64,000 nt of DNA from Savitreella phatthalungensis (taxonomy: Eukaryota): assembly GCA_051599415.1 (NCBI GenBank), contig AP039715.1, forward strand, positions 124,001-188,000, written 5' to 3'. The notes below the pieces were generated by a model. It was not told where the DNA came from and ran no database searches. It worked only from the letters and a program-made list of their open reading frames with translations. Shown here piece by piece: positions 45,526 through 61,737 of the stretch; positions within the stretch are counted from its first letter, which is position 1, and the number at the start of each line of letters is the position of its first letter. Made by a program: the position numbers and the translations under genes.

Positions 45526-46809
45526 TCAAGTGTACCATGTCGGCTTCGGCAGACGACCTTCGAGGTAGTAAGCACCGACTTCGGTCTTCTTGTAGGCGAT
45601 GGGGTCGTGCAGCGTGTGAGTCCGGACGTTCCTCCAGAATCTGTCGAGGCCTACCTTTGAGGAAGTGGCGCGGGCGCCCGTAAGCTCGTACACCTTGCTC
45701 GTCAGGTGGAGTGCGTGGTCGACAATAGATACCTTGGCCGTAGCAACCTCTGCCGCGATGATGCCACGCTGTTCTGGCGTCAGCGATTCCTTCGGCGCAT
45801 GAGCCAGTTTTGAGATTGCAGCACCGACCTGGTCGTGCAGCGCCTCGGAAGCACGCACTCCAGCGTAGAGGACACCATAACCTTCCAGGATGTACCACTC
45901 CTCGAGCGCGTTATCGTGTCCACGGCCGCCCTCTGAAGCCGGCCACGGGCGCGTCTTGCTGGTCGTGTACTGCTGGGCGAAGCGGAGACCTCCGATGGCG
46001 ATACCGAGGTACTTGTTGGAGAAGTTGTGCTGAATCAGCGGCAGTGTGATTGTGTGGTATGGAATCGGTGTGTAAGTCTTGGCGACGGGGTCCCAGCCGG
46101 CAGCACCTTCCCATGGCACACGGACATCGTCAATCACGACGCCACCGGATTCCGTTAGGCGCTGTCCAAGAGCATCCCAGTCGCCCTTGAACTGGATGCC
46201 TGGCTGGTTCGTAGGAACGAAGGAGAAAATGTGCTTGTCAGTGCCATCGAGGACGCCTTCGAGGACGGTGACATCGGAGATACGACCACCAGTCGAGAAG
46301 GACTTGACGCCATTGAAGACGATCGAGTCTCCCTCGTCGCGAATCGTTAGGTCGGCGTCGCGCGGGTTGACCGCACCACCAAAGAAGCTGCGGTTGCGGG
46401 TGTGCGGCTCGATGAAGGCTTCGTACTTCTCGTTGTCGAAGAGCACGTACGCTAGCCATGACCAGAGCAAGTGGTATCCAAGTAGCTGGCCGATCGAGCC
46501 ATCGTACTCAGAGATCGTCCGAATCAGCTTGTACGCCACCTCCCACGTGCCGCCACCGCCGCCGAACTTGGCTGGCTGCAGATAGGTGATAAGGCCAGCC
46601 TGTTTGAGAAGGTTGACTTCGTGTTCAGGCTTGCCGTTCGCCTTGTCGCGCTCTACTGCATCAACTTCAAGGATCCGACCGACCTCGCGAGCCTTCTCAA
46701 TCCACTCTACTGGAGAAGAAGGCTGAGTGGATGAGAGCTGAGGAATGATCTTCTTGTCTATTGCTGGAGCTCCACCATTGTTGGCGGTAGTCGTCGTTAC
46801 GGAGGGCAT
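45526..46809 (-). CDS. Acyl-CoA-dehydrogenase-fold flavin monooxygenase, DszC/SfnB (desulfurising) family
   Basis: DGSIGQLLGYH, GGAVNPRD, GVKSFSTG, DWDALGQRLTESG, GLDRFWRNVRTHTLHDP, PTWYT. Confidence 0.9.
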   Translation of the reverse strand: MPSVTTTTANNGGAPAIDKKIIPQLSSTQPSSPVEWIEKAREVGRILEVDAVERDKANGKPEHEVNLLKQAGLITYLQPAKFGGGGGTWEVAYKLIRTISEYDGSIGQLLGYHLLWSWLAYVLFDNEKYEAFIEPHTRNRSFFGGAVNPRDADLTIRDEGDSIVFNGVKSFSTGGRISDVTVLEGVLDGTDKHIFSFVPTNQPGIQFKGDWDALGQRLTESGGVVIDDVRVPWEGAAGWDPVAKTYTPIPYHTITLPLIQHNFSNKYLGIAIGGLRFAQQYTTSKTRPWPASEGGRGHDNALEEWYILEGYGVLYAGVRASEALHDQVGAAISKLAHAPKESLTPEQRGIIAAEVATAKVSIVDHALHLTSKVYELTGARATSSKVGLDRFWRNVRTHTLHDPIAYKKTEVGAYYLEGRLPKPTWYT

Positions 46810-46974
46810 CTTGAAAGACAGAGAACTCGTTAGGATCGGCCATATGTGGCCACGACCTGCTTCTTATACCTTTCACTGCATCTTACCTTGTCACATGAAA
46901 TCCTCCGTGACAATGTGCGTGCATAATTGCTCGCGCCGTACGCATGGAATATGGTGAAATCTGTCGCAATCAGT

Positions 46975-48498
46975 CAAAAATCTCCTTTCGTAACACAGCC
47001 AGCTGAAATTCGAGTGGGAGTGTGCAGAAGGGTCTGTTTTGTGGATAATGTGGGGCACGGATTTAATGCAAGACCACAGTGGTCGATCACTCGATTTAGT
47101 GCCTTCCCTTCAATGTAGCTGAGTCGATTGGATCTGTGCACTGTCCCATGGATAAAGATCAGCGATGGCGTGCTTGCCCCTCGACCAGCAGCAGAGGTCA
47201 GCCCTCTCAGACATCTTATTCATGTTTGATTGCGATAGGCTTGCCATACCGCTTGCACGCGTGCTGACCTGACCCTTATCCGCGTTTCATCGCTACGGCT
47301 TACTGCTCACCGACAGCGCAGGACAATCCAATTGGGGCTCATGGCTGTTTCAGCAGCTCACGGAGATGAAATGCGGAAAAGAGTCGCGACGGCAGGCCGT
47401 GCGGATTGTGGTTGAAAGCACCTAAGCGCTTTTCTTAGTCCAAAGATTGCCCATGCGGAAGCTTAACGGGAAGAACAGAGCTCCTGCCCAGCATGCCACC
47501 TGATGGACAAGTTGGTACTTTGACTCTCACAAGGGCGAGGTCCCATCTAGTGGACAACAGGCAGAGTCATGCTCAAAAATTCCTTTGCTTCCGCGCAAAG
47601 AATATCTCTCAGCTGGACAGGCAAGGAGATCGTGTGTAGCTGCAGATAAGCACCGTAAGCTGCTTTGTGGATCAGAGACTGCGCGTCCATGCGACGTGCT
47701 TTGCCTCCAGCGGTCAAGAACAGGGTAGAGAAAACCGCGAATGGGGACCGCCCAGGCGCCCTTTTCCTTGTGAGAGAAGGACGCAATCTACACGACTAGT
47801 AGCCTCGAGTCACGCCCATCGAGCAAGCTCGGTCGGGTATCGCGAGATCACGGACAACGTTCGCATACGTAACGCGCCATAGCCTGGGGTGGGGTCGATC
47901 GCCATCGCTGTGCATGGCGGTGGACCTGTCGATAGAGATCGGCTGAAGGAAGGTGTCCGTACCGAGCCACAAGCCACGGCTCGAGATCTTGGAACCAGTG
48001 ATGTGTTCTCACTGCGGAGGATCCTCTGGCGCCGCGCCGACCGCGACGCTTTCTGAAGGATCACATGGCTATGAGCACCGTCGTGTGTAAGAGCATGGGT
48101 TTGCGACCTAGGACATCCTTCTTCAAACTCAGCGATCGCGCCAGCACAAAGACGATAAACTGACTTAGGGTTAAGTGAGGAGACATCTCGCACTCGCTGC
48201 TGACCACTTTGAAATCGTAGTGCTAGTAGCGAGCGTCGAGAGATGGCTCCTGAACTATTTGGGATGTCAGTCAGCCTTGAAGGCGCTCTGGATAAGGAAC
48301 GATCATACCTGCGGGGGTACTCTGCTTGTGGACTTGTCTTGTGTCCTGGGGATGGGTTGTGATGTACAATGAAACACGAGACACGGTGCTAGGCAGCCCA
48401 GCGTATGTAAGACGCGGCAGATTGGCGCCACAAATGCACGATCGAGTGAGTGAGTGAGCGAGCAAGCTGTTCCTTGCAAGACTGCGAAAATCGATATC
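46975..48498 (-). ncRNA. Candidate telomerase RNA (TER); core 47574-48498, possible 3' extension to ~46975
   Basis: Template UAACCCUAA (48173-48165) 5 nt 3' of a long hairpin; pseudoknot with UUUUCUC loop; core-enclosing helices; Sm site AAUUUUUG at 47581-47574; no credible ORF in the 2-kb spacer. Confidence 0.65.
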
Positions 48499-48812
48499 AT
48501 TAATTCGAATCAGTCACGACTGCACACCATACATGGACTGACGACGATTGACAATTAATGCAATGAACGCAGAGAATGTAAGATATGTACGTATGGCAGG
48601 GAGACAACCGAGCGAGACATGAGCAGACACTGGAATGGCAAGTCAATGAAAGTCGGTGGTGCAATGAACATTCATACGTATATCCGACATACTGTCAGAC
48701 TGCTCCACAGGAGCGACTGGTGACGGATTTGTCGTGCGAACGTAACCCTTAAGCGTGAAAGCACGTGGGAACGAGCGCAAGAACGAGTATGCATCAGAGT
48801 AGAATCGGTTTA

Positions 48813-49316
48813 TTACTCGACGACCTCGTTCAGAGACTCTGCTCGTTCAGCGTCCTCGAGCTCAACCATCTTTTGGACCACCTTGAAGACGAATGGCGGG
48901 ATTGTCTGCTCGTAGATTCGTGTGAGCTCGGCTGGCTGGGGGTACATCTTGAGTGCTCGCCAGAAGCAAATTGCAGCGTCAAACTTATGCGGTTCACCAC
49001 CTGCGTAGAGCTGCTCACCACGAGCGACCTCTGTCATGAACTGCTGTTCACGCTCCTCTGCCGATGTGGGCAAAGGTGCCGAGCGCGCGAGTCTCAGTGC
49101 CTCAAGCGTTGCTTCCTCTTCTCCTTGCTCTGCCTGACGCTGCTTCTCCTTCTCGAGTCCCGCGAGACGTTTGTGCTCTCGTCTGATAGCCTTGCGGAAT
49201 TCTGGGTCATTTCTCCGCTTCCAGTCGAAGTAAATGCAATAGCCGACAACGCCGGCAGAGACAGCTGCCAGAGATGCTAGGACTGTTGTTCGTGAAATTG
49301 ACAGGTCGGATGACAT
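48813..49316 (-). CDS. TOM20: Mitochondrial import receptor Tom20
   Basis: TM anchor then GYCIYFDWKRRNDPEFRK, FMTEVARGE, ALKMYPQP. Confidence 0.95.
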   Translation of the reverse strand: MSSDLSISRTTVLASLAAVSAGVVGYCIYFDWKRRNDPEFRKAIRREHKRLAGLEKEKQRQAEQGEEEATLEALRLARSAPLPTSAEEREQQFMTEVARGEQLYAGGEPHKFDAAICFWRALKMYPQPAELTRIYEQTIPPFVFKVVQKMVELEDAERAESLNEVVE

Positions 49317-49958: not shown

Positions 49959-51965
49959 ATGGCTTCGCTGCGGAAGAAGAAAACCAATGATGCATTGCCA
50001 CGGCGAATCTCTACATTCGATGGCATGCCAACAGCTCCACAAGTCGTCGTTGGATCGAAAGAGAAGAACAAGGTGCAAGACAAGATCAAGCGCAGGCTGT
50101 CCGTACGTATGGGTCTACCTACCGGTCAGCGACAGCAGCGTCCAGCTCTTCCGCCAGGCGCGCTCTCCAACCTTCAAACAACGCGCTTGAATGTCAAGCC
50201 GCCGCTGCAGAGCTCAGAGCGCAAAGCATCTGTGCCCTACATCGCTCCAATACGTCCGGTGTACGATCCAGTCGTCTTCAACGATCCAAATTTCGATGCA
50301 GAAAGCTACGTCAAGCGTATGCTCCAGACTGCCACTCCAACAGAGCTCGATGACTTCTTTCAGACACTCCAAGAACAACGAACGACAAATTCAGGAGCTC
50401 AGCAACGTGATACCTTCTCCAATCATCGCGAGTTCATCACAATCAGCAAGGAGGTCAGCACACTGGACACGGACGTCTCTGCCATCCGCAACATGCTTGG
50501 CGAGCTCCGTGGCGTAGCACAGCGCCTCGCCGTAGATACTGACCAGACTGATCTCGGAAGGCGGGATGATGGGCGAAGAGCTGGGCGAAACTCCATAGTC
50601 GACTTTCACCAGTTGAACAAGAACAATCTACAGTTGCTCTGGCAGCAGGTGGAAGGTTCGCGAAAGTTCCTGCCTGCAGAAGAAGGTCGAAGAGTGGTTC
50701 GAGAATCGGGCGCCTGGACCGAGCTCAACTCAGCAACCTGGCGTGTCAAGCAAAAGGTTCACGTCGTCTTGCTGAATGATCACATCCTTCTAGCGGCCCG
50801 CAGGCAGAAGCCGAACGGCTCTGGCCAGCGCTTGATAGCGCAACGGTGCTTCAGCTTGATGGATGTTCAGATCAGCGAGCTTCGGGACAAGGAGATGGAA
50901 GATGCCATCATGATTCACCTCATTTCCACGCGGGACAAGTTTGTTCTGCGCGCCGACACCCTGGAAGAAAAGAGAGTGATGTACCTTGCAATGCAGCGAG
51001 AACTCGCAGAGCTGGAGGCAGGCGTGAAGCGAGAATCGCAGCTCGACCTCGAAAGATCAACCGGCAGAGTTGCGCAGGACACATCTCGTCAAGGTCAGAT
51101 CAAGCGGCTATCTCGCCGACTATCGAAGCGGATAGACAAACCCACAACAACAACTGGTGTCAATGGTGAGCAGATTGATCTGACATGGATTCAAGAGCGC
51201 ATCGACGATCTGGACCAGAAGATTGCACACAGACAATACAGTGCCGCCGTCCGCTCGCTGCATCGAGGCCGCGCACTTGTCAAAGATGCGTCTGCGGACG
51301 ACCTTGCGGGTGCGCTAGTGGCTCTCCGCCTCGACGAGCGTGCCGATCACCTAGCAGCAAGACTAGCAGAAGAGCTGTCGCAAGAGGCGCTATCACGGCG
51401 AACACGAGTCATAACCGAGCTTGTCGGATGTCTCTCGTCGATTGACCGAAGTCAGCTTGCCCATGAGACTTTCTTCGCCGCACGCACGGAGCTCATTGTG
51501 AAAAGATTGGGAGGCATTCAGTTCGAGGGAGACGTGCTGCTTTACATTTCGGATGTCTCCCTTGTTCATTTCCACTTGATCAGACAGACCGCTGTTCTGT
51601 ACAACGAGACATTTGCTTCCAATCGTGAGCTCTCGATCGATCGTAAGCGCACTTCTTCCCCTTCACGAGCTTCATCGGAGCCAGATCGTCCAACGACAGT
51701 GGCTGTCGGCGCTGCTTTGATCGCGTGGGCACGGGATGAGGCAGACAAGTTTGCAGACGTTTTCTCAAGGCAGCTCTACGGTATGGCGACCCACGCCGAC
51801 CTCTACCAAGAAGCCCTTGCCGCAGTCTCTCGCAACATCTCGACTCTGCGCGACATTGGCATGGACCTTTCTTTCTGGCTGCAGCACAGACTCGCTCAGC
51901 GAGCGGACGCCTCTGCAAATGACGACATTGCCCAGGGTATGTCTCAGCTTACCGTCTCTGCATAG
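49959..51965 (+). CDS. EXO84: Exocyst subunit Exo84
   Basis: FDAESYV, NHREFITISKEVSTL, QVEGSRKF, PH domain WTELNSATW..VVLLNDHILLA, FEGDVLLYI. Confidence 0.9.
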   Translation: MASLRKKKTNDALPRRISTFDGMPTAPQVVVGSKEKNKVQDKIKRRLSVRMGLPTGQRQQRPALPPGALSNLQTTRLNVKPPLQSSERKASVPYIAPIRPVYDPVVFNDPNFDAESYVKRMLQTATPTELDDFFQTLQEQRTTNSGAQQRDTFSNHREFITISKEVSTLDTDVSAIRNMLGELRGVAQRLAVDTDQTDLGRRDDGRRAGRNSIVDFHQLNKNNLQLLWQQVEGSRKFLPAEEGRRVVRESGAWTELNSATWRVKQKVHVVLLNDHILLAARRQKPNGSGQRLIAQRCFSLMDVQISELRDKEMEDAIMIHLISTRDKFVLRADTLEEKRVMYLAMQRELAELEAGVKRESQLDLERSTGRVAQDTSRQGQIKRLSRRLSKRIDKPTTTTGVNGEQIDLTWIQERIDDLDQKIAHRQYSAAVRSLHRGRALVKDASADDLAGALVALRLDERADHLAARLAEELSQEALSRRTRVITELVGCLSSIDRSQLAHETFFAARTELIVKRLGGIQFEGDVLLYISDVSLVHFHLIRQTAVLYNETFASNRELSIDRKRTSSPSRASSEPDRPTTVAVGAALIAWARDEADKFADVFSRQLYGMATHADLYQEALAAVSRNISTLRDIGMDLSFWLQHRLAQRADASANDDIAQGMSQLTVSA

Positions 51966-60175: not shown

Positions 60176-61168
60176 GGAAGCAATTGAGGGAATACACCTC
60201 CTCTATTCAGTGATCAAGGAAATCTCGAGTATAGAGAAGACTAGATGTGGAAGTGTAAATTTCCACTCGAAAGTTTAACGAAATGAATGATGGTATCAAA
60301 GACTTTGAAGAGGACGAACGAGGAGGAATGAAGAGTACTGAGAAGGCTTTCAATGGAGGATCTAATGTCGAGACGAGTCAAAGTAGCAGTTGCGTTGATC
60401 GAATGTCATGTATCGTATACGTGCTTTCCGACGATGTGGACTCTACATGTGGGAATATTGATTGTCACAGTAGGTGATAAGTGCTATTGATATGAGATGA
60501 CGGTTTGACTCGATTGAACAGTCTTGCTGCTGTTTGGGTTGCCGTGTGTTTATAGGGTTTCAGAAGAGTGGCGAGTTGAGCGTATGCGATTTGGAAATGG
60601 TTTTGTATCTTCGATCATCATTTAAACTAAATTTAGTACTTGAGAAGCTGCTGCCCGTGTATACGTACGTACATACGGGATTCACCGCTCGGAAGTAGAG
60701 TCGTAATCCCCGACGGCTGGGCTTGGCGTTTGAGCATTCCGTGGCTCCACACCTGTTTTTGGCAATATTGTAGGTGGGATTAGAAACTGATCAATAATAC
60801 TGAGTTCAAGATCGTCAAACAGTCAATCTGATTCAGATCAGATATCTCCTGAGATACCCGAACATGAATTATAGTATCCCGTGTCCGTGCATTGATATGT
60901 CCAAACGTCCTCCTTTCCTCCCTTGTACTCCCGCCTATTCATTCTGTCTCACCAGAATGCATTGCCATGGCTTGCAAGTTTATACGATTCGAACGAAGCT
61001 TTGGATCATGCCTTCAATTATCTGAGATCGATAAAAGTTATAAATTGTACTAAACAAAAGAACAGGAAGAATGATTAGACTTTAAAACTTGAGATCTGGA
61101 CTGACCTACGCATGCATTTTATTAGACTAAAGTGTATGTATGCATATACGTGTGATCAGCCAGTGAGC

Positions 61169-61224
61169 GAGTGAGTGAGTGAGTGAGTGAGTGAGTGAGT
61201 GAGTGAGTGAGTGAGTGAGTGAGT
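61169..61224. repeat. (GAGT)14 microsatellite
   Basis: Read directly. Confidence 0.97.
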
Positions 61225-61737
61225 GTGAAGCGTGTCTGATCAGTCTCCACCAATACACGCATACACAGCACACTTACCCTTGACCTTCAACACTTTCCAA
61301 CATCAAGATCGACCTCCATCAATCCTCATACTCCCCTTCTTCATCCTAGTCCTCTAGTGACTAGACAGAAAGAAAGGAAGCTTGAGCCATCAGTCTCAGA
61401 TTTCCCCAGACTCAAATTCCTTTTCTCTCTCAAATACAGGTCGGTTCACACAGACGCGCTCGACCCAAGCGATCACGTCTAAGCGCAATCCTTGAAGCTC
61501 GTCATTTGGAAGGGCGGACGTGGCTGAAACTTGACACTGTGAGTGAGTCTCAAGTATCGAGTCTGTCACAGACATACACAAAAGTCTCACAATCTTGCGT
61601 CTGTAGTGACGCCTCCGCATCTCTCACACAACCGCGAAACCTATTCCCGATTCCCCTGCCAACCAGCCAGCCAACACCACTGTCACCTGCCTTATCCTTC
61701 AGACGCCTGACAAAATCACCTTTTGCAACTGCCGGGT

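What the first reader, a model, noticed from the sequence alone, without database searches (positions are those of the whole stretch)
47574..48498. Strong unannotated telomerase RNA candidate between TOM20 and the DszC-like gene
Seen (minus strand, 5' to 3'; plus coordinates): stacked long-range helices 48493-98/47601-06, 48471-77/47621-27, 48437-43/47628-34, 48393-98/47638-43 and 48382-90/47649-57 enclose a core; a long hairpin 48250-48179 ends 5 nt before UAACCCUAA (48173-48165, 1.5 copies of the TTAGGG complement); an arm 48133-47942 follows; then an H-type pseudoknot: 47785-79/47688-82, GCGGU/ACCGC (47738-34/47714-10), loop UUUUCUC, CUGUU(C)UUG (47723-15) pairing with CAAAGCAG (47667-60) right before the enclosing helix; Sm site AAUUUUUG at 47581-74. 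G-U wobbles favour the minus strand. Established: fungal TERs have boundary helix, template, (yeast) Est1 arm, pseudoknot with U-rich loop, core-enclosing helix and 3' Sm site; human J2b/3 is UUUUUCUC. Inference: this is the species' TER, a gene class that homology searches usually miss.
Basis: partly seen in the sequence, partly recalled or inferred. Interest (0 to 1): 0.9.

Follow-up and report, generated by a model that had tools for sequence, protein, structure and literature searches.

The report
Probable fungal telomerase RNA gene
A gene-free stretch beside the TOM20 gene of a Taphrina-like fungus very probably encodes the RNA that telomerase copies to build chromosome ends, a known kind of gene that ordinary annotation misses, but no expression or cross-species evidence could be obtained here.

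Summary

**Evidence above chance, judged against the window's own sequence:**
- UAACCCUAA (48173-48165, minus strand) is identical to the Neurospora crassa TER template (PMC3592445).
- It is among the 0.1-0.4% most reliably unpaired 9-mers in four transcript models.
- A very stable hairpin ends 5 nt upstream of it: z -4.8, and 0 of 300 random sites match it.
- A telomerase-type pseudoknot follows. A strict descriptor finds 2 loci in 128 kb; a relaxed one finds 38.

**Weak or unsupported points:**
- The stacked long-range helices are only modestly unusual: 1.5% by chained base pairs, 7% by duplex energy.
- The G-U strand argument does not hold.
- The "Sm site = 3' end" reading is doubtful.

**New element.** I find a P5/P6/P6.1-like junction at 47553-47496, outside its coordinates. 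Its loop is ACCA, not the NUNGN consensus.

**Not obtained.** There is no Rfam hit. No genome, RNA reads or relatives' DNA were available.

**Verdict.** The organism is Taphrinomycotina-like. This is a probable TER (about 0.7) and a new member of a known kind.

The parts
48382..48498 (-). 5' strands of five nested long-range helices (putative core-enclosing helices): 48498-93, 48477-71, 48443-37, 48398-93, 48390-82
   Evidence: Complementarity confirmed. Chain of 35 bp is reached by 1.47% of 1500 background pairs; duplex energy by 7.3%. Ensemble pair probabilities 0-0.64, dependent on assumed ends. Weak to moderate.
48179..48250 (-). Template boundary element: 72-nt hairpin ending 5 nt (4 nt with one more A-U pair) upstream of the template
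   Evidence: -32.0 kcal/mol; top 0.2% of 3000 random 72-mers; 0 of 300 random sites have as stable an adjacent hairpin. z -4.82, 0 of 200 shuffles. Pair probability 1.0 in four transcript models.
48165..48173 (-). Template UAACCCUAA (1.5 copies of the TTAGGG complement); flanking bases U (5') and G (3') break the repeat, so exactly 9 nt
   Evidence: Identical to the NcrTER template given as 3'-AAUCCCAAU-5' in PMC3592445. Minimum unpaired probability 0.93-0.94, top 0.1-0.4% of 9-mers.
47942..48133 (-). Branched arm between template and pseudoknot; function unassigned
   Evidence: Folds as a multibranch arm, z -1.34, 21 of 200 shuffles as good. No support for an Est1-arm reading.
47660..47738 (-). 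H-type pseudoknot: S1 GCGGU 47738-34 / ACCGC 47714-10; loop 1 UUUCUCUACC 47733-24; S2 CUGUU(C)UUG 47723-15 / CAAAGCAG 47667-60 (alternative 3' strand CAAAGCA 47703-47697)
   Evidence: Strict descriptor: 2 loci in 128 kb; relaxed: 38 loci. S1 pair probability 0.56-0.65. The U-tract in loop 1 and the U-A pairs next to the junction would allow U-A.U triples (inference). The nested MFE prefers an upstream GGCGGUC as the S1 5' strand.
47601..47657 (-). 3' strands of the five nested long-range helices, starting 2 nt after the pseudoknot's last strand
47447..47598 (-). Long arm carrying a candidate three-way junction (core 47553-47496): P5 47553-49/47500-496 and 47547-43/47506-02; P6 47542-35/47530-22 (8 bp, one bulge, loop CCUU); J = A 47521; P6.1 AAGU 47520-17 / ACUU 47512-09, loop ACCA; J = GU 47508-07
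   Evidence: MFE of 47440-47600: z -2.51, 3 of 200 shuffles; helices listed. Core z -2.86, MFE is 56% of the ensemble. TWJ descriptor finds 6 loci in 128 kb. Pair probabilities 0.07-0.98, dependent on assumed ends. Loop does not fit NUNGN.
47574..47581 (-).
   Evidence: Partly paired or bulged in the MFE. No 5' splice site next to it.
47440..47448 (-). Degenerate Sm-like AAUCUUUGG directly after the junction arm; possible 3'-end region
   Evidence: motif only, unsupported.
47197..47279 (-). Near-matches to the filamentous-fungal TER 5' splice site AUAAGU: AUAAGG 47279-74 and AUAAGA 47219-14, with branch-point-like GCUGAC (CUGAC 47201-47197)
   Evidence: No exact AUAAGU, no pyrimidine-rich tract upstream, no YAG after CUGAC. 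Speculative.

Best explanation
The minus strand of the TOM20-to-acyl-CoA-dehydrogenase-like intergenic region encodes the telomerase RNA (TER) of a Taphrinomycotina-like ascomycete.

**How it would work (inferred from known TERs):**
- TERT copies the 9-nt template UAACCCUAA (48173-48165) to add TTAGGG repeats.
- The stable hairpin 48250-48179 stops reverse transcription at the template's 5' edge.
- The pseudoknot at 47738-47660 has a U-rich loop and junction-proximal U-A pairs. It would form the triple helix that positions the template in the active site.
- Long-range helices (48498-48382 with 47657-47601) may close this template-pseudoknot core.
- A downstream arm (47598-47447) would present a compact P5/P6/P6.1 three-way junction to TERT.

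**Extent.** Both ends are undetermined.

**Shown here:** the sequence elements, their thermodynamic stability and their rarity in the window.

**Inferred only:** transcription, the strand (from template polarity), the species' telomere repeat, protein binding and processing.
For: - **Template identity.** It matches the experimentally validated N. crassa template (PMC3592445 passage). Taphrina, Saitoella and Pneumocystis carry TTAGGG telomeres (PMC7857110 passage).
- **Taxon.** The window's Exo84 is 49% identical to Taphrina deformans, 42% to Protomyces lactucae-debilis and 32% to Saitoella complicata. Its TOM20 is 66% identical to Protomyces.
- **Template accessibility.** Minimum unpaired probability 0.93-0.94 in 4 of 4 transcript models, top 0.1-0.4% of 9-mers.
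- **Boundary hairpin.** z -4.82, 0 of 200 shuffles; 0.2% of 3000 background 72-mers; 0 of 300 random sites.
- **Pseudoknot.** The strict telomerase-type descriptor hits only this site and one other in 128 kb.
- **Three-way junction.** The candidate has a published-like geometry: 8-bp P6, 4-bp P6.1, 4-nt loop. Core z -2.86; the descriptor finds 6 loci in 128 kb.
- **Element order.** Boundary hairpin, template, pseudoknot, closing helices, three-way junction: the same order as the N. crassa model.
- **Not coding, not repetitive.** 0 of 4 ORFs in the stretch match Pfam at E<=0.01. The stretch is single-copy in the window apart from a (CTCA)n run.
Against:
- **No comparative evidence.** None of the 49 metagenome TOM20 loci exceeds 53% identity (best 46% over a full-length match). 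0 of 49 carries a same-strand template-like 9-mer.
- **No genome.** The telomere repeat could not be read, and competing template sites elsewhere could not be excluded. A telomere-type 9-mer is expected about 2.9 times per 64 kb by chance.
- **No Rfam match.** No telomerase family at E<=10 in four scans.
- **Whole-region fold is unremarkable** on either strand: z -1.71 and -1.76.
- **Post hoc descriptors.** My pseudoknot and junction descriptors were written after seeing the candidate. The relaxed pseudoknot descriptor hits 38 loci in 128 kb.
- **Core-enclosing helices** have low ensemble probabilities.
- **P6.1 loop** is ACCA and lacks the U and G of the NUNGN consensus.
- **3' end.** There is no exact AUAAGU 5' splice site and no Sm site next to a splice site.
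Confidence: 0.7

Rival explanations
1. Ordinary intergenic DNA: the TOM20 3' UTR and terminator plus the promoter and 5' UTR of the acyl-CoA-dehydrogenase-like gene. It would contain a chance telomere-like 9-mer, and the helices are the product of searching around it.
For: - About 2.9 telomere-type 9-mers are expected per 64 kb by chance.
- Whole-region z is -1.7 on both strands.
- The long-range helix chain reaches only p about 0.015-0.07, and the relaxed pseudoknot descriptor is common (38 loci).
- There is no Rfam hit.
- Three genes run on the same strand with only 315 nt between the TOM20 stop codon and the first proposed helix.
- Other ORF-poor gaps of 2-3 kb exist in the window.
Against: Several features coincide:
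- a hairpin in the top 0.2% lies exactly beside the 9-mer (0 of 300 random sites);
- that 9-mer is among the 0.1-0.4% most accessible;
- a strict telomerase-type pseudoknot lies downstream (2 loci in 128 kb);
- a junction-like fold lies in the canonical order.

This combination is hard to get by chance even after discounting post hoc choices.
Confidence: 0.2
2. A different structured transcript: a long non-coding RNA, or a structured 3' UTR extension of TOM20 mRNA. The telomere-like 9-mer would be incidental.
For: Locally stable elements exist on the same strand as, and close to, TOM20. Element energies are similar on both strands, so structure alone does not prove the minus-strand RNA.
Against: No known RNA family matches. 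The specific combination of boundary hairpin, accessible 1.5-repeat template and U-rich pseudoknot is what defines TERs and has no other known use.
Confidence: 0.1

Closest known systems
Neurospora crassa / Pezizomycotina telomerase RNA (Qi et al. 2012, PMC3592445; Kuprys et al. 2013, PMC3603654)
   Same: - Identical 9-nt template.
- Helix-type template boundary a few nt upstream.
- Pseudoknot with a U-rich loop.
- Core-enclosing helices.
- Compact P5/P6/P6.1-type junction 3' of the core.
- Kilobase size, intergenic location.
   Different: - No detectable sequence or Rfam similarity.
- P6.1 loop is ACCA rather than NUNGN.
- No exact AUAAGU 5' splice site and no pyrimidine-rich tract before one.
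- Probably shorter (about 1.05-1.3 kb against 1.9-2.4 kb).
Taphrinomycotina TERs: Schizosaccharomyces pombe TER1 and Saitoella complicata TER (PMC3592445; PMC4299874)
   Same: - Same subphylum by protein similarity.
- These TERs keep the pseudoknot and a junction with a 4-bp P6.1 and a 4- to 5-nt loop, which fits the 4-nt loop here.
- TER1 is 1207 nt as reconstituted, a comparable size.
- Sm-type U-rich motifs are used at the 3' end.
   Different: - S. pombe has a divergent template and telomere repeat.
- Its Sm site overlaps a 5' splice site by one nucleotide. Here AAUUUUUG has no splice site beside it.
- I could not see the S. complicata sequence or figures, so no direct comparison was made.
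Vertebrate telomerase RNA (pseudoknot and CR4/5)
   Same: - Pseudoknot topology S1 / U-rich loop / S2 with no spacer before the S1 3' strand.
- The loop begins UUUCUC, like human J2b/3 (recalled, not from a call).
- The junction has a 1-nt A before a 4-bp P6.1 and GU after it (the human comparison is recalled).
   Different: - No H/ACA domain.
- No hit to the Rfam vertebrate model.
- Hairpin-type rather than P1-type template boundary.
Ustilago maydis TER, processed from the 3' UTR of Emi1 mRNA (PMC9564094)
   Same: The TER lies downstream of, and on the same strand as, a protein-coding gene. U. maydis TER also has an AUUUUU Sm-like motif near its 3' end.
   Different: It is a basidiomycete with a different host gene. 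Nothing here shows co-transcription with TOM20.

Membership tests
Fungal (Pezizomycotina/Taphrinomycotina-type) telomerase RNA | Template complementary to about 1.5 telomere repeats of the species | tested here: inconclusive
   UAACCCUAA is present and identical to the N. crassa template. The species' own telomere repeat could not be read because no genome is held. TTAGGG is reported for Taphrina, Saitoella and Pneumocystis.
Fungal (Pezizomycotina/Taphrinomycotina-type) telomerase RNA | Single-stranded template with a stable boundary helix just 5' of it | tested here: met
   Unpaired probability 0.93-0.94, top 0.1-0.4% of 9-mers. The hairpin ends 4-5 nt upstream; z -4.82; 0 of 300 background sites match it.
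Fungal (Pezizomycotina/Taphrinomycotina-type) telomerase RNA | Template-proximal pseudoknot with a U-rich loop able to form U-A.U triples | tested here: met
   Sequence-level pseudoknot with loop UUUCUC... and three U-A pairs near the junction. Strict descriptor 2 loci in 128 kb, relaxed 38. Triple-helix formation itself is inferred.
Fungal (Pezizomycotina/Taphrinomycotina-type) telomerase RNA | Core-enclosing helices joining the regions 5' of the template and 3' of the pseudoknot | tested here: inconclusive
   Five collinear helices exist. They are only modestly above background (1.47% and 7.3%) and have low ensemble probability.
Fungal (Pezizomycotina/Taphrinomycotina-type) telomerase RNA | Three-way junction with P6 and a 4-bp P6.1 and a 4-5-nt loop (Pezizomycotina consensus NUNGN), 3' of the core | tested here: inconclusive
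   Candidate at 47553-47496 has the right geometry and position. Its loop ACCA lacks the conserved U and G. The NUNGN hairpins at 47554-42 and 48045-33 do not sit in a P5/P6/P6.1 arrangement.
Fungal (Pezizomycotina/Taphrinomycotina-type) telomerase RNA | 3'-end module: Sm/U-rich site followed by a 5' splice site (AUAAGU type or S. pombe type), branch point and 3' splice site | tested here: not met
   No AUAAGU in 46810-48812 on the minus strand; only AUAAGG and AUAAGA, without a U-rich tract. AAUUUUUG at 47581-74 has no adjacent splice site. The feature may be divergent or lie elsewhere. The key paper (Qi 2015) is not held.
Fungal (Pezizomycotina/Taphrinomycotina-type) telomerase RNA | Sequence or profile similarity to known TERs | tested here: not met
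   No telomerase family at E<=10 in four Rfam scans. Published work says BLAST also failed between Pezizomycotina and Saitoella.
Fungal (Pezizomycotina/Taphrinomycotina-type) telomerase RNA | Expressed as a discrete non-coding RNA that associates with TERT and dictates the telomere sequence | not testable with these tools
No wet-lab data.
Fungal (Pezizomycotina/Taphrinomycotina-type) telomerase RNA | Conservation and covariation of the core elements in relatives | not testable with these tools
   Only distant TOM20 loci were retrievable (49 loci, 32-53% identity), and none is informative. Closer relatives exist only as protein records.

The most novel reading that the evidence does not exclude
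The TER is not an independent gene. It would be matured from the 3' part of the TOM20 transcript, and the acyl-CoA-dehydrogenase-like gene downstream might share that transcription unit. The basis is that all three lie on the same strand, with only 315 nt between the TOM20 stop codon and the first TER helix. This would be an ascomycete counterpart of the mRNA-derived TER of Ustilago maydis. It would come with a divergent P6.1 loop (ACCA) and a 3' end made without the AUAAGU-type spliceosomal cleavage thought to be ancestral in this group.
Probability: 0.06. Interest if true: 0.75.

Novelty: new member of a known kind. Interest (0 to 1): 0.5.

Why it matters
TER genes evolve so fast that they are missing from almost all fungal annotations. 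The only non-fission-yeast Taphrinomycotina TER named in the texts I could read is that of Saitoella complicata.

A TER from a divergent Taphrina/Protomyces-like lineage would add a data point between fission yeasts and filamentous ascomycetes. It would bear on how the pseudoknot, the P6.1 junction and spliceosomal 3'-end processing evolved. It would also give a handle for telomere work in that organism.

It is a useful annotation rather than a surprise. As it stands it is a prediction from one sequence.

Tried and rejected
- **Whole genome for telomere repeats and competing templates:** none is held.
- **Public sequencing runs for expression:** I did not repeat it.
- **Rfam,** four scans at E<=10 on 6 kb, 2 kb, 181 nt and 701 nt. 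Only spurious weak hits appeared: sR51 E 6, CRISPR-DR54 E 0.92, mir-6579 E 8.2.
- **Earlier findings of this scan:** nothing.
- **Synteny through TOM20 in metagenome contigs:**
  - 49 loci at 32-53% identity, and 0 of 49 has a C-strand telomere 9-mer on the TOM20 strand.
  - The 17-nt telomere-like run in L014 and L015 lies in the opposite orientation, directly upstream of a TATA-like sequence. I read it as a promoter motif, not a TER.
- **G-U wobble strand test:** rejected. There are 3 G-U in 40 bp, and energies are similar on both strands.
- **Alternative P6.1 candidates with NUNGN loops:**
  - 47554-42 has no P6 before it.
  - 48045-33 is really an 8-bp hairpin inside the template-pseudoknot core.
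  - 47827-15 has 3 G-U pairs in a 4-bp stem.
- **AUAAGU-type 3'-end module:** not found.
- **Repeat or MITE explanation of the hairpin:** there are no other copies in the window.
- **Papers and supplements I could not read:**
  - Qi et al. 2015 (Nat Commun 6:6105) is not held. What I say of it is recalled.
  - The supplementary PDF of Qi 2012, with the TER table and alignments, cannot be read here. It may bear on the junction and 3'-end comparisons.
Full report
**Setting.** The window is compact, gene-dense fungal DNA with long intron-poor ORFs.
- The finding lies in a 2003-bp gap between two minus-strand genes.
  - One is TOM20 (48813-49316; Pfam PF02064 on the identical database protein).
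  - The other is an acyl-CoA-dehydrogenase-family gene (45526-46809; PF08028, PF02770).
  - Exo84 lies on the other side of TOM20 (49959-51965, plus strand).
- Named relatives place the organism in or near the Taphrinomycotina.
  - Exo84 is 49% identical to Taphrina deformans, 42% to Protomyces lactucae-debilis and 32% to Saitoella complicata. Pezizomycotina are at 25-30%.
  - TOM20 is 66% identical to Protomyces.
  - The window is therefore not Saitoella, whose TER is published, nor a close Taphrina or Protomyces.
- Taphrina, Saitoella and Pneumocystis are reported to have TTAGGG telomeres (PMC7857110, passages).

**The observation.** All coordinates check.
- Seven of the eight listed helices are perfectly complementary with G-U allowed.
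- The eighth pairs as 8 bp with the single bulged C.
- UAACCCUAA is at 48173-48165 on the minus strand.
  - The bases on either side (U and G) break the repeat, so the match is exactly 9 nt.
  - It equals the N. crassa TER template, printed as 3'-AAUCCCAAU-5' in Qi et al. 2012 (PMC3592445, passage).
- The 9-mer alone means little. Twelve telomere-type 9-mers (six registers, two strands) are expected about 2.9 times in 64 kb, and one was found (my arithmetic).

**What stands out against the window's own background.**
- *Boundary hairpin 48250-48179.*
  - It folds at -32.0 kcal/mol, and only 0.2% of 3000 random 72-mers from the window do as well.
  - None of 300 random positions has so stable a hairpin ending 1-8 nt upstream.
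  - With flanks, z is -4.82 and 0 of 200 shuffles match it.
- *Template accessibility.*
  - In four transcript models with different ends, the template's minimum unpaired probability is 0.93-0.94.
  - Only 0.1-0.4% of 9-mers are as open, and the hairpin's pair probability is 1.0 in all four.
  - These two results did not depend on choices made after seeing the structure. They are the strongest evidence.
- *Pseudoknot.*
  - GCGGU / UUUCUCUACC / CUGUU(C)UUG / ACCGC ... CAAAGCAG has the telomerase topology. The U-rich loop follows stem 1 directly, stem 2 abuts the 3' strand of stem 1, and U-A pairs sit by the junction.
  - A descriptor with these rules hits this site and one other in 128 kb. A relaxed version hits 38 loci.
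  - I wrote the descriptor after seeing the candidate, so its weight lies between roughly 1% and 18%.
  - There are alternative partners: a second CAAAGCA at 47703-47697, and an upstream GGCGGUC that the nested MFE prefers.

**What is weak.**
- The five stacked long-range helices total 35 bp.
  - Same-geometry segment pairs drawn at random from the window reach this in 1.47% of 1500 trials, and reach the duplex energy in 7.3%.
  - Their ensemble pair probabilities are 0-0.64 and collapse when the assumed transcript is lengthened.
- The whole 925-nt stretch has z -1.71 on the minus strand and -1.76 on the plus strand.
- The arm 48133-47942 has z -1.34. Nothing identifies it as an Est1 arm, and Qi et al. 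saw no Est1- or Ku-like structures in filamentous TERs (section 19).
- G-U wobbles do not favour a strand.
  - There are 3 G-U in 40 bp.
  - The boundary hairpin scores -32.0 on the minus strand and -34.7 on the plus strand. The junction arm scores -58.3 and -52.6.
  - The strand follows only from the polarity of the template.

- Published fungal TERs need a second domain: a three-way junction with P6 and a 4-bp P6.1, located 3' of the template-pseudoknot core.
  - It is required for activity in N. crassa and S. pombe.
  - The loop is NUNGN in Pezizomycotina and 4-5 nt in S. pombe and S. complicata.
- Directly after the last closing helix, the MFE of 47600-47440 is a long arm (z -2.51, 3 of 200 shuffles). 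Its tip at 47553-47496 is such a junction.
  - P5 has 5+5 bp and P6 has 8 bp with one bulge.
  - One A follows, then P6.1 AAGU/ACUU with loop ACCA, then GU, then the P5 return strand.
  - The core has z -2.86, and its MFE makes up 56% of the ensemble.
  - A P5/P6/P6.1 descriptor finds six loci in 128 kb, so about 0.04 are expected in the 1 kb downstream of the pseudoknot.
- Points against it: the loop lacks the conserved U and G, and pair probabilities fall to 0.07-0.37 in longer transcript models.
The AAUUUUUG at 47581-47574 then sits in the basal part of the arm, partly paired, and not at the 3' end.

**The 3' end is unresolved.**
[quoted passage not shown] I recall, without a call, that the N. 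crassa TER uses the same AUAAGU site (Qi 2015).
- The minus strand of 46810-48812 has no AUAAGU.
- AUAAGG (47279) and AUAAGA (47219) lie near a GCUGAC (47201), but with no U-rich tract and no YAG after the branch point.
- A degenerate AAUCUUUGG follows the arm at 47448, and a second AUUUUUG lies at 46981.
- The 5' end is also unknown. Only 315 nt separate the TOM20 stop codon from the first proposed helix.

**Negative and missing evidence.**
- No telomerase family, and nothing credible, appears in four Rfam scans at E<=10. This fits the known failure of homology searches across these clades, but it is no support.
All are too distant, and none has a same-strand template-like 9-mer.
- Closer relatives exist only as protein records. 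Their TOM20 and Exo84 share contig lengths in at least five cases. Local synteny therefore seems conserved, and the decisive comparison can be made by anyone with those contigs.
- None of four ORFs in the stretch matches Pfam.
- The stretch is single-copy in the window apart from a (CTCA)n run at 48444-48458.

**Weighing.**
- A genome of this kind should hold several hundred chance template-like 9-mers and one TER.
- Three features coincide at this 9-mer: a top-0.2% adjacent hairpin, top-0.4% accessibility and a canonical pseudoknot. A junction-like fold lies in the right order, all within an ORF-free gap. This outweighs that prior even after a heavy discount for post hoc choices.
- The lack of any expression, conservation or telomere-repeat check keeps me at about 0.7.
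- Rivals: a chance motif in ordinary intergenic DNA (0.2), or another structured transcript (0.1).

**Comparison and novelty.**
- It works like, and is most simply filed with, the vertebrate-like TERs of Pezizomycotina and Taphrinomycotina.
- Membership tests:

| Test | Result |
|---|---|
| Template and template boundary | met |
| Pseudoknot | met at sequence level |
| Closing helices | inconclusive |
| Three-way junction | inconclusive |
| 3'-end module | not met |
| Profile similarity | not met |
| Expression and conservation | untestable here |

- It is a new member of a known kind. It is valuable as an annotation and as a data point from a sparsely sampled lineage, but it is not surprising.
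- The boldest reading not excluded is an mRNA-derived TER matured from the TOM20 transcript, as U. maydis TER is from Emi1 mRNA (PMC9564094, passages). I put that at about 6%.

**Papers and what I saw of them.**
- PMC3592445: outline, sections 18 and 19, passages. Its supplementary PDF is unreadable here.
- PMC3603654: outline, passages, sections 23 and 24.
- PMC4299874, PMC4993307, PMC7857110, PMC12449055, PMC9564094 and PMC6115765: passages only.
- Qi 2015 (Nat Commun 6:6105): nothing seen. What I say of it is recalled.
- The human J2b/3 and CR4/5 sequences used for comparison are also recalled, not from a call.

Noticed in passing
L015:12231-12247 (and L014:2595-2611): A 17-nt perfect telomere-type run (ACCCTAACCCTAACCCT on the strand opposite TOM20) lies 1.84 kb downstream of TOM20 in two metagenome contigs of a distant fungus. 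It sits directly upstream of a TATATATGATAT stretch. It looks like a telomere-repeat-like promoter element rather than a TER template.
   Followed up: partly
window 46810-46890, minus strand: An intron-like module lies just upstream of the acyl-CoA-dehydrogenase-like ATG (46809): GUAAGA at 46885, a second AUAAGA at 46867, CUAAC at 46833, and a poor AAG acceptor abutting the ATG. It is probably a 5' UTR intron. Its relation to the upstream RNA is unknown.
   Followed up: no
window 46975-46981, minus strand: A second exact AUUUUUG Sm-like motif lies about 170 nt upstream of the acyl-CoA-dehydrogenase-like start codon.
   Followed up: no
window 48444-48458 and 61168-61225: A (CTCA)n/(GAGT)n microsatellite. 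A short run lies inside the proposed 5' region of the RNA, and a longer array lies near 61.2 kb.
   Followed up: no
window 47697-47703 / 47660-47667 and 47745-47751 / 47734-47738, minus strand: Both pseudoknot stems have duplicated partner sequences: CAAAGCA occurs twice and GCGGU twice. This allows alternative pseudoknot registers, either a possible conformational switch or coincidence.
   Followed up: partly
This suggests the TOM20-Exo84 adjacency is conserved across this lineage, including Protomyces lactucae-debilis.
   Followed up: no
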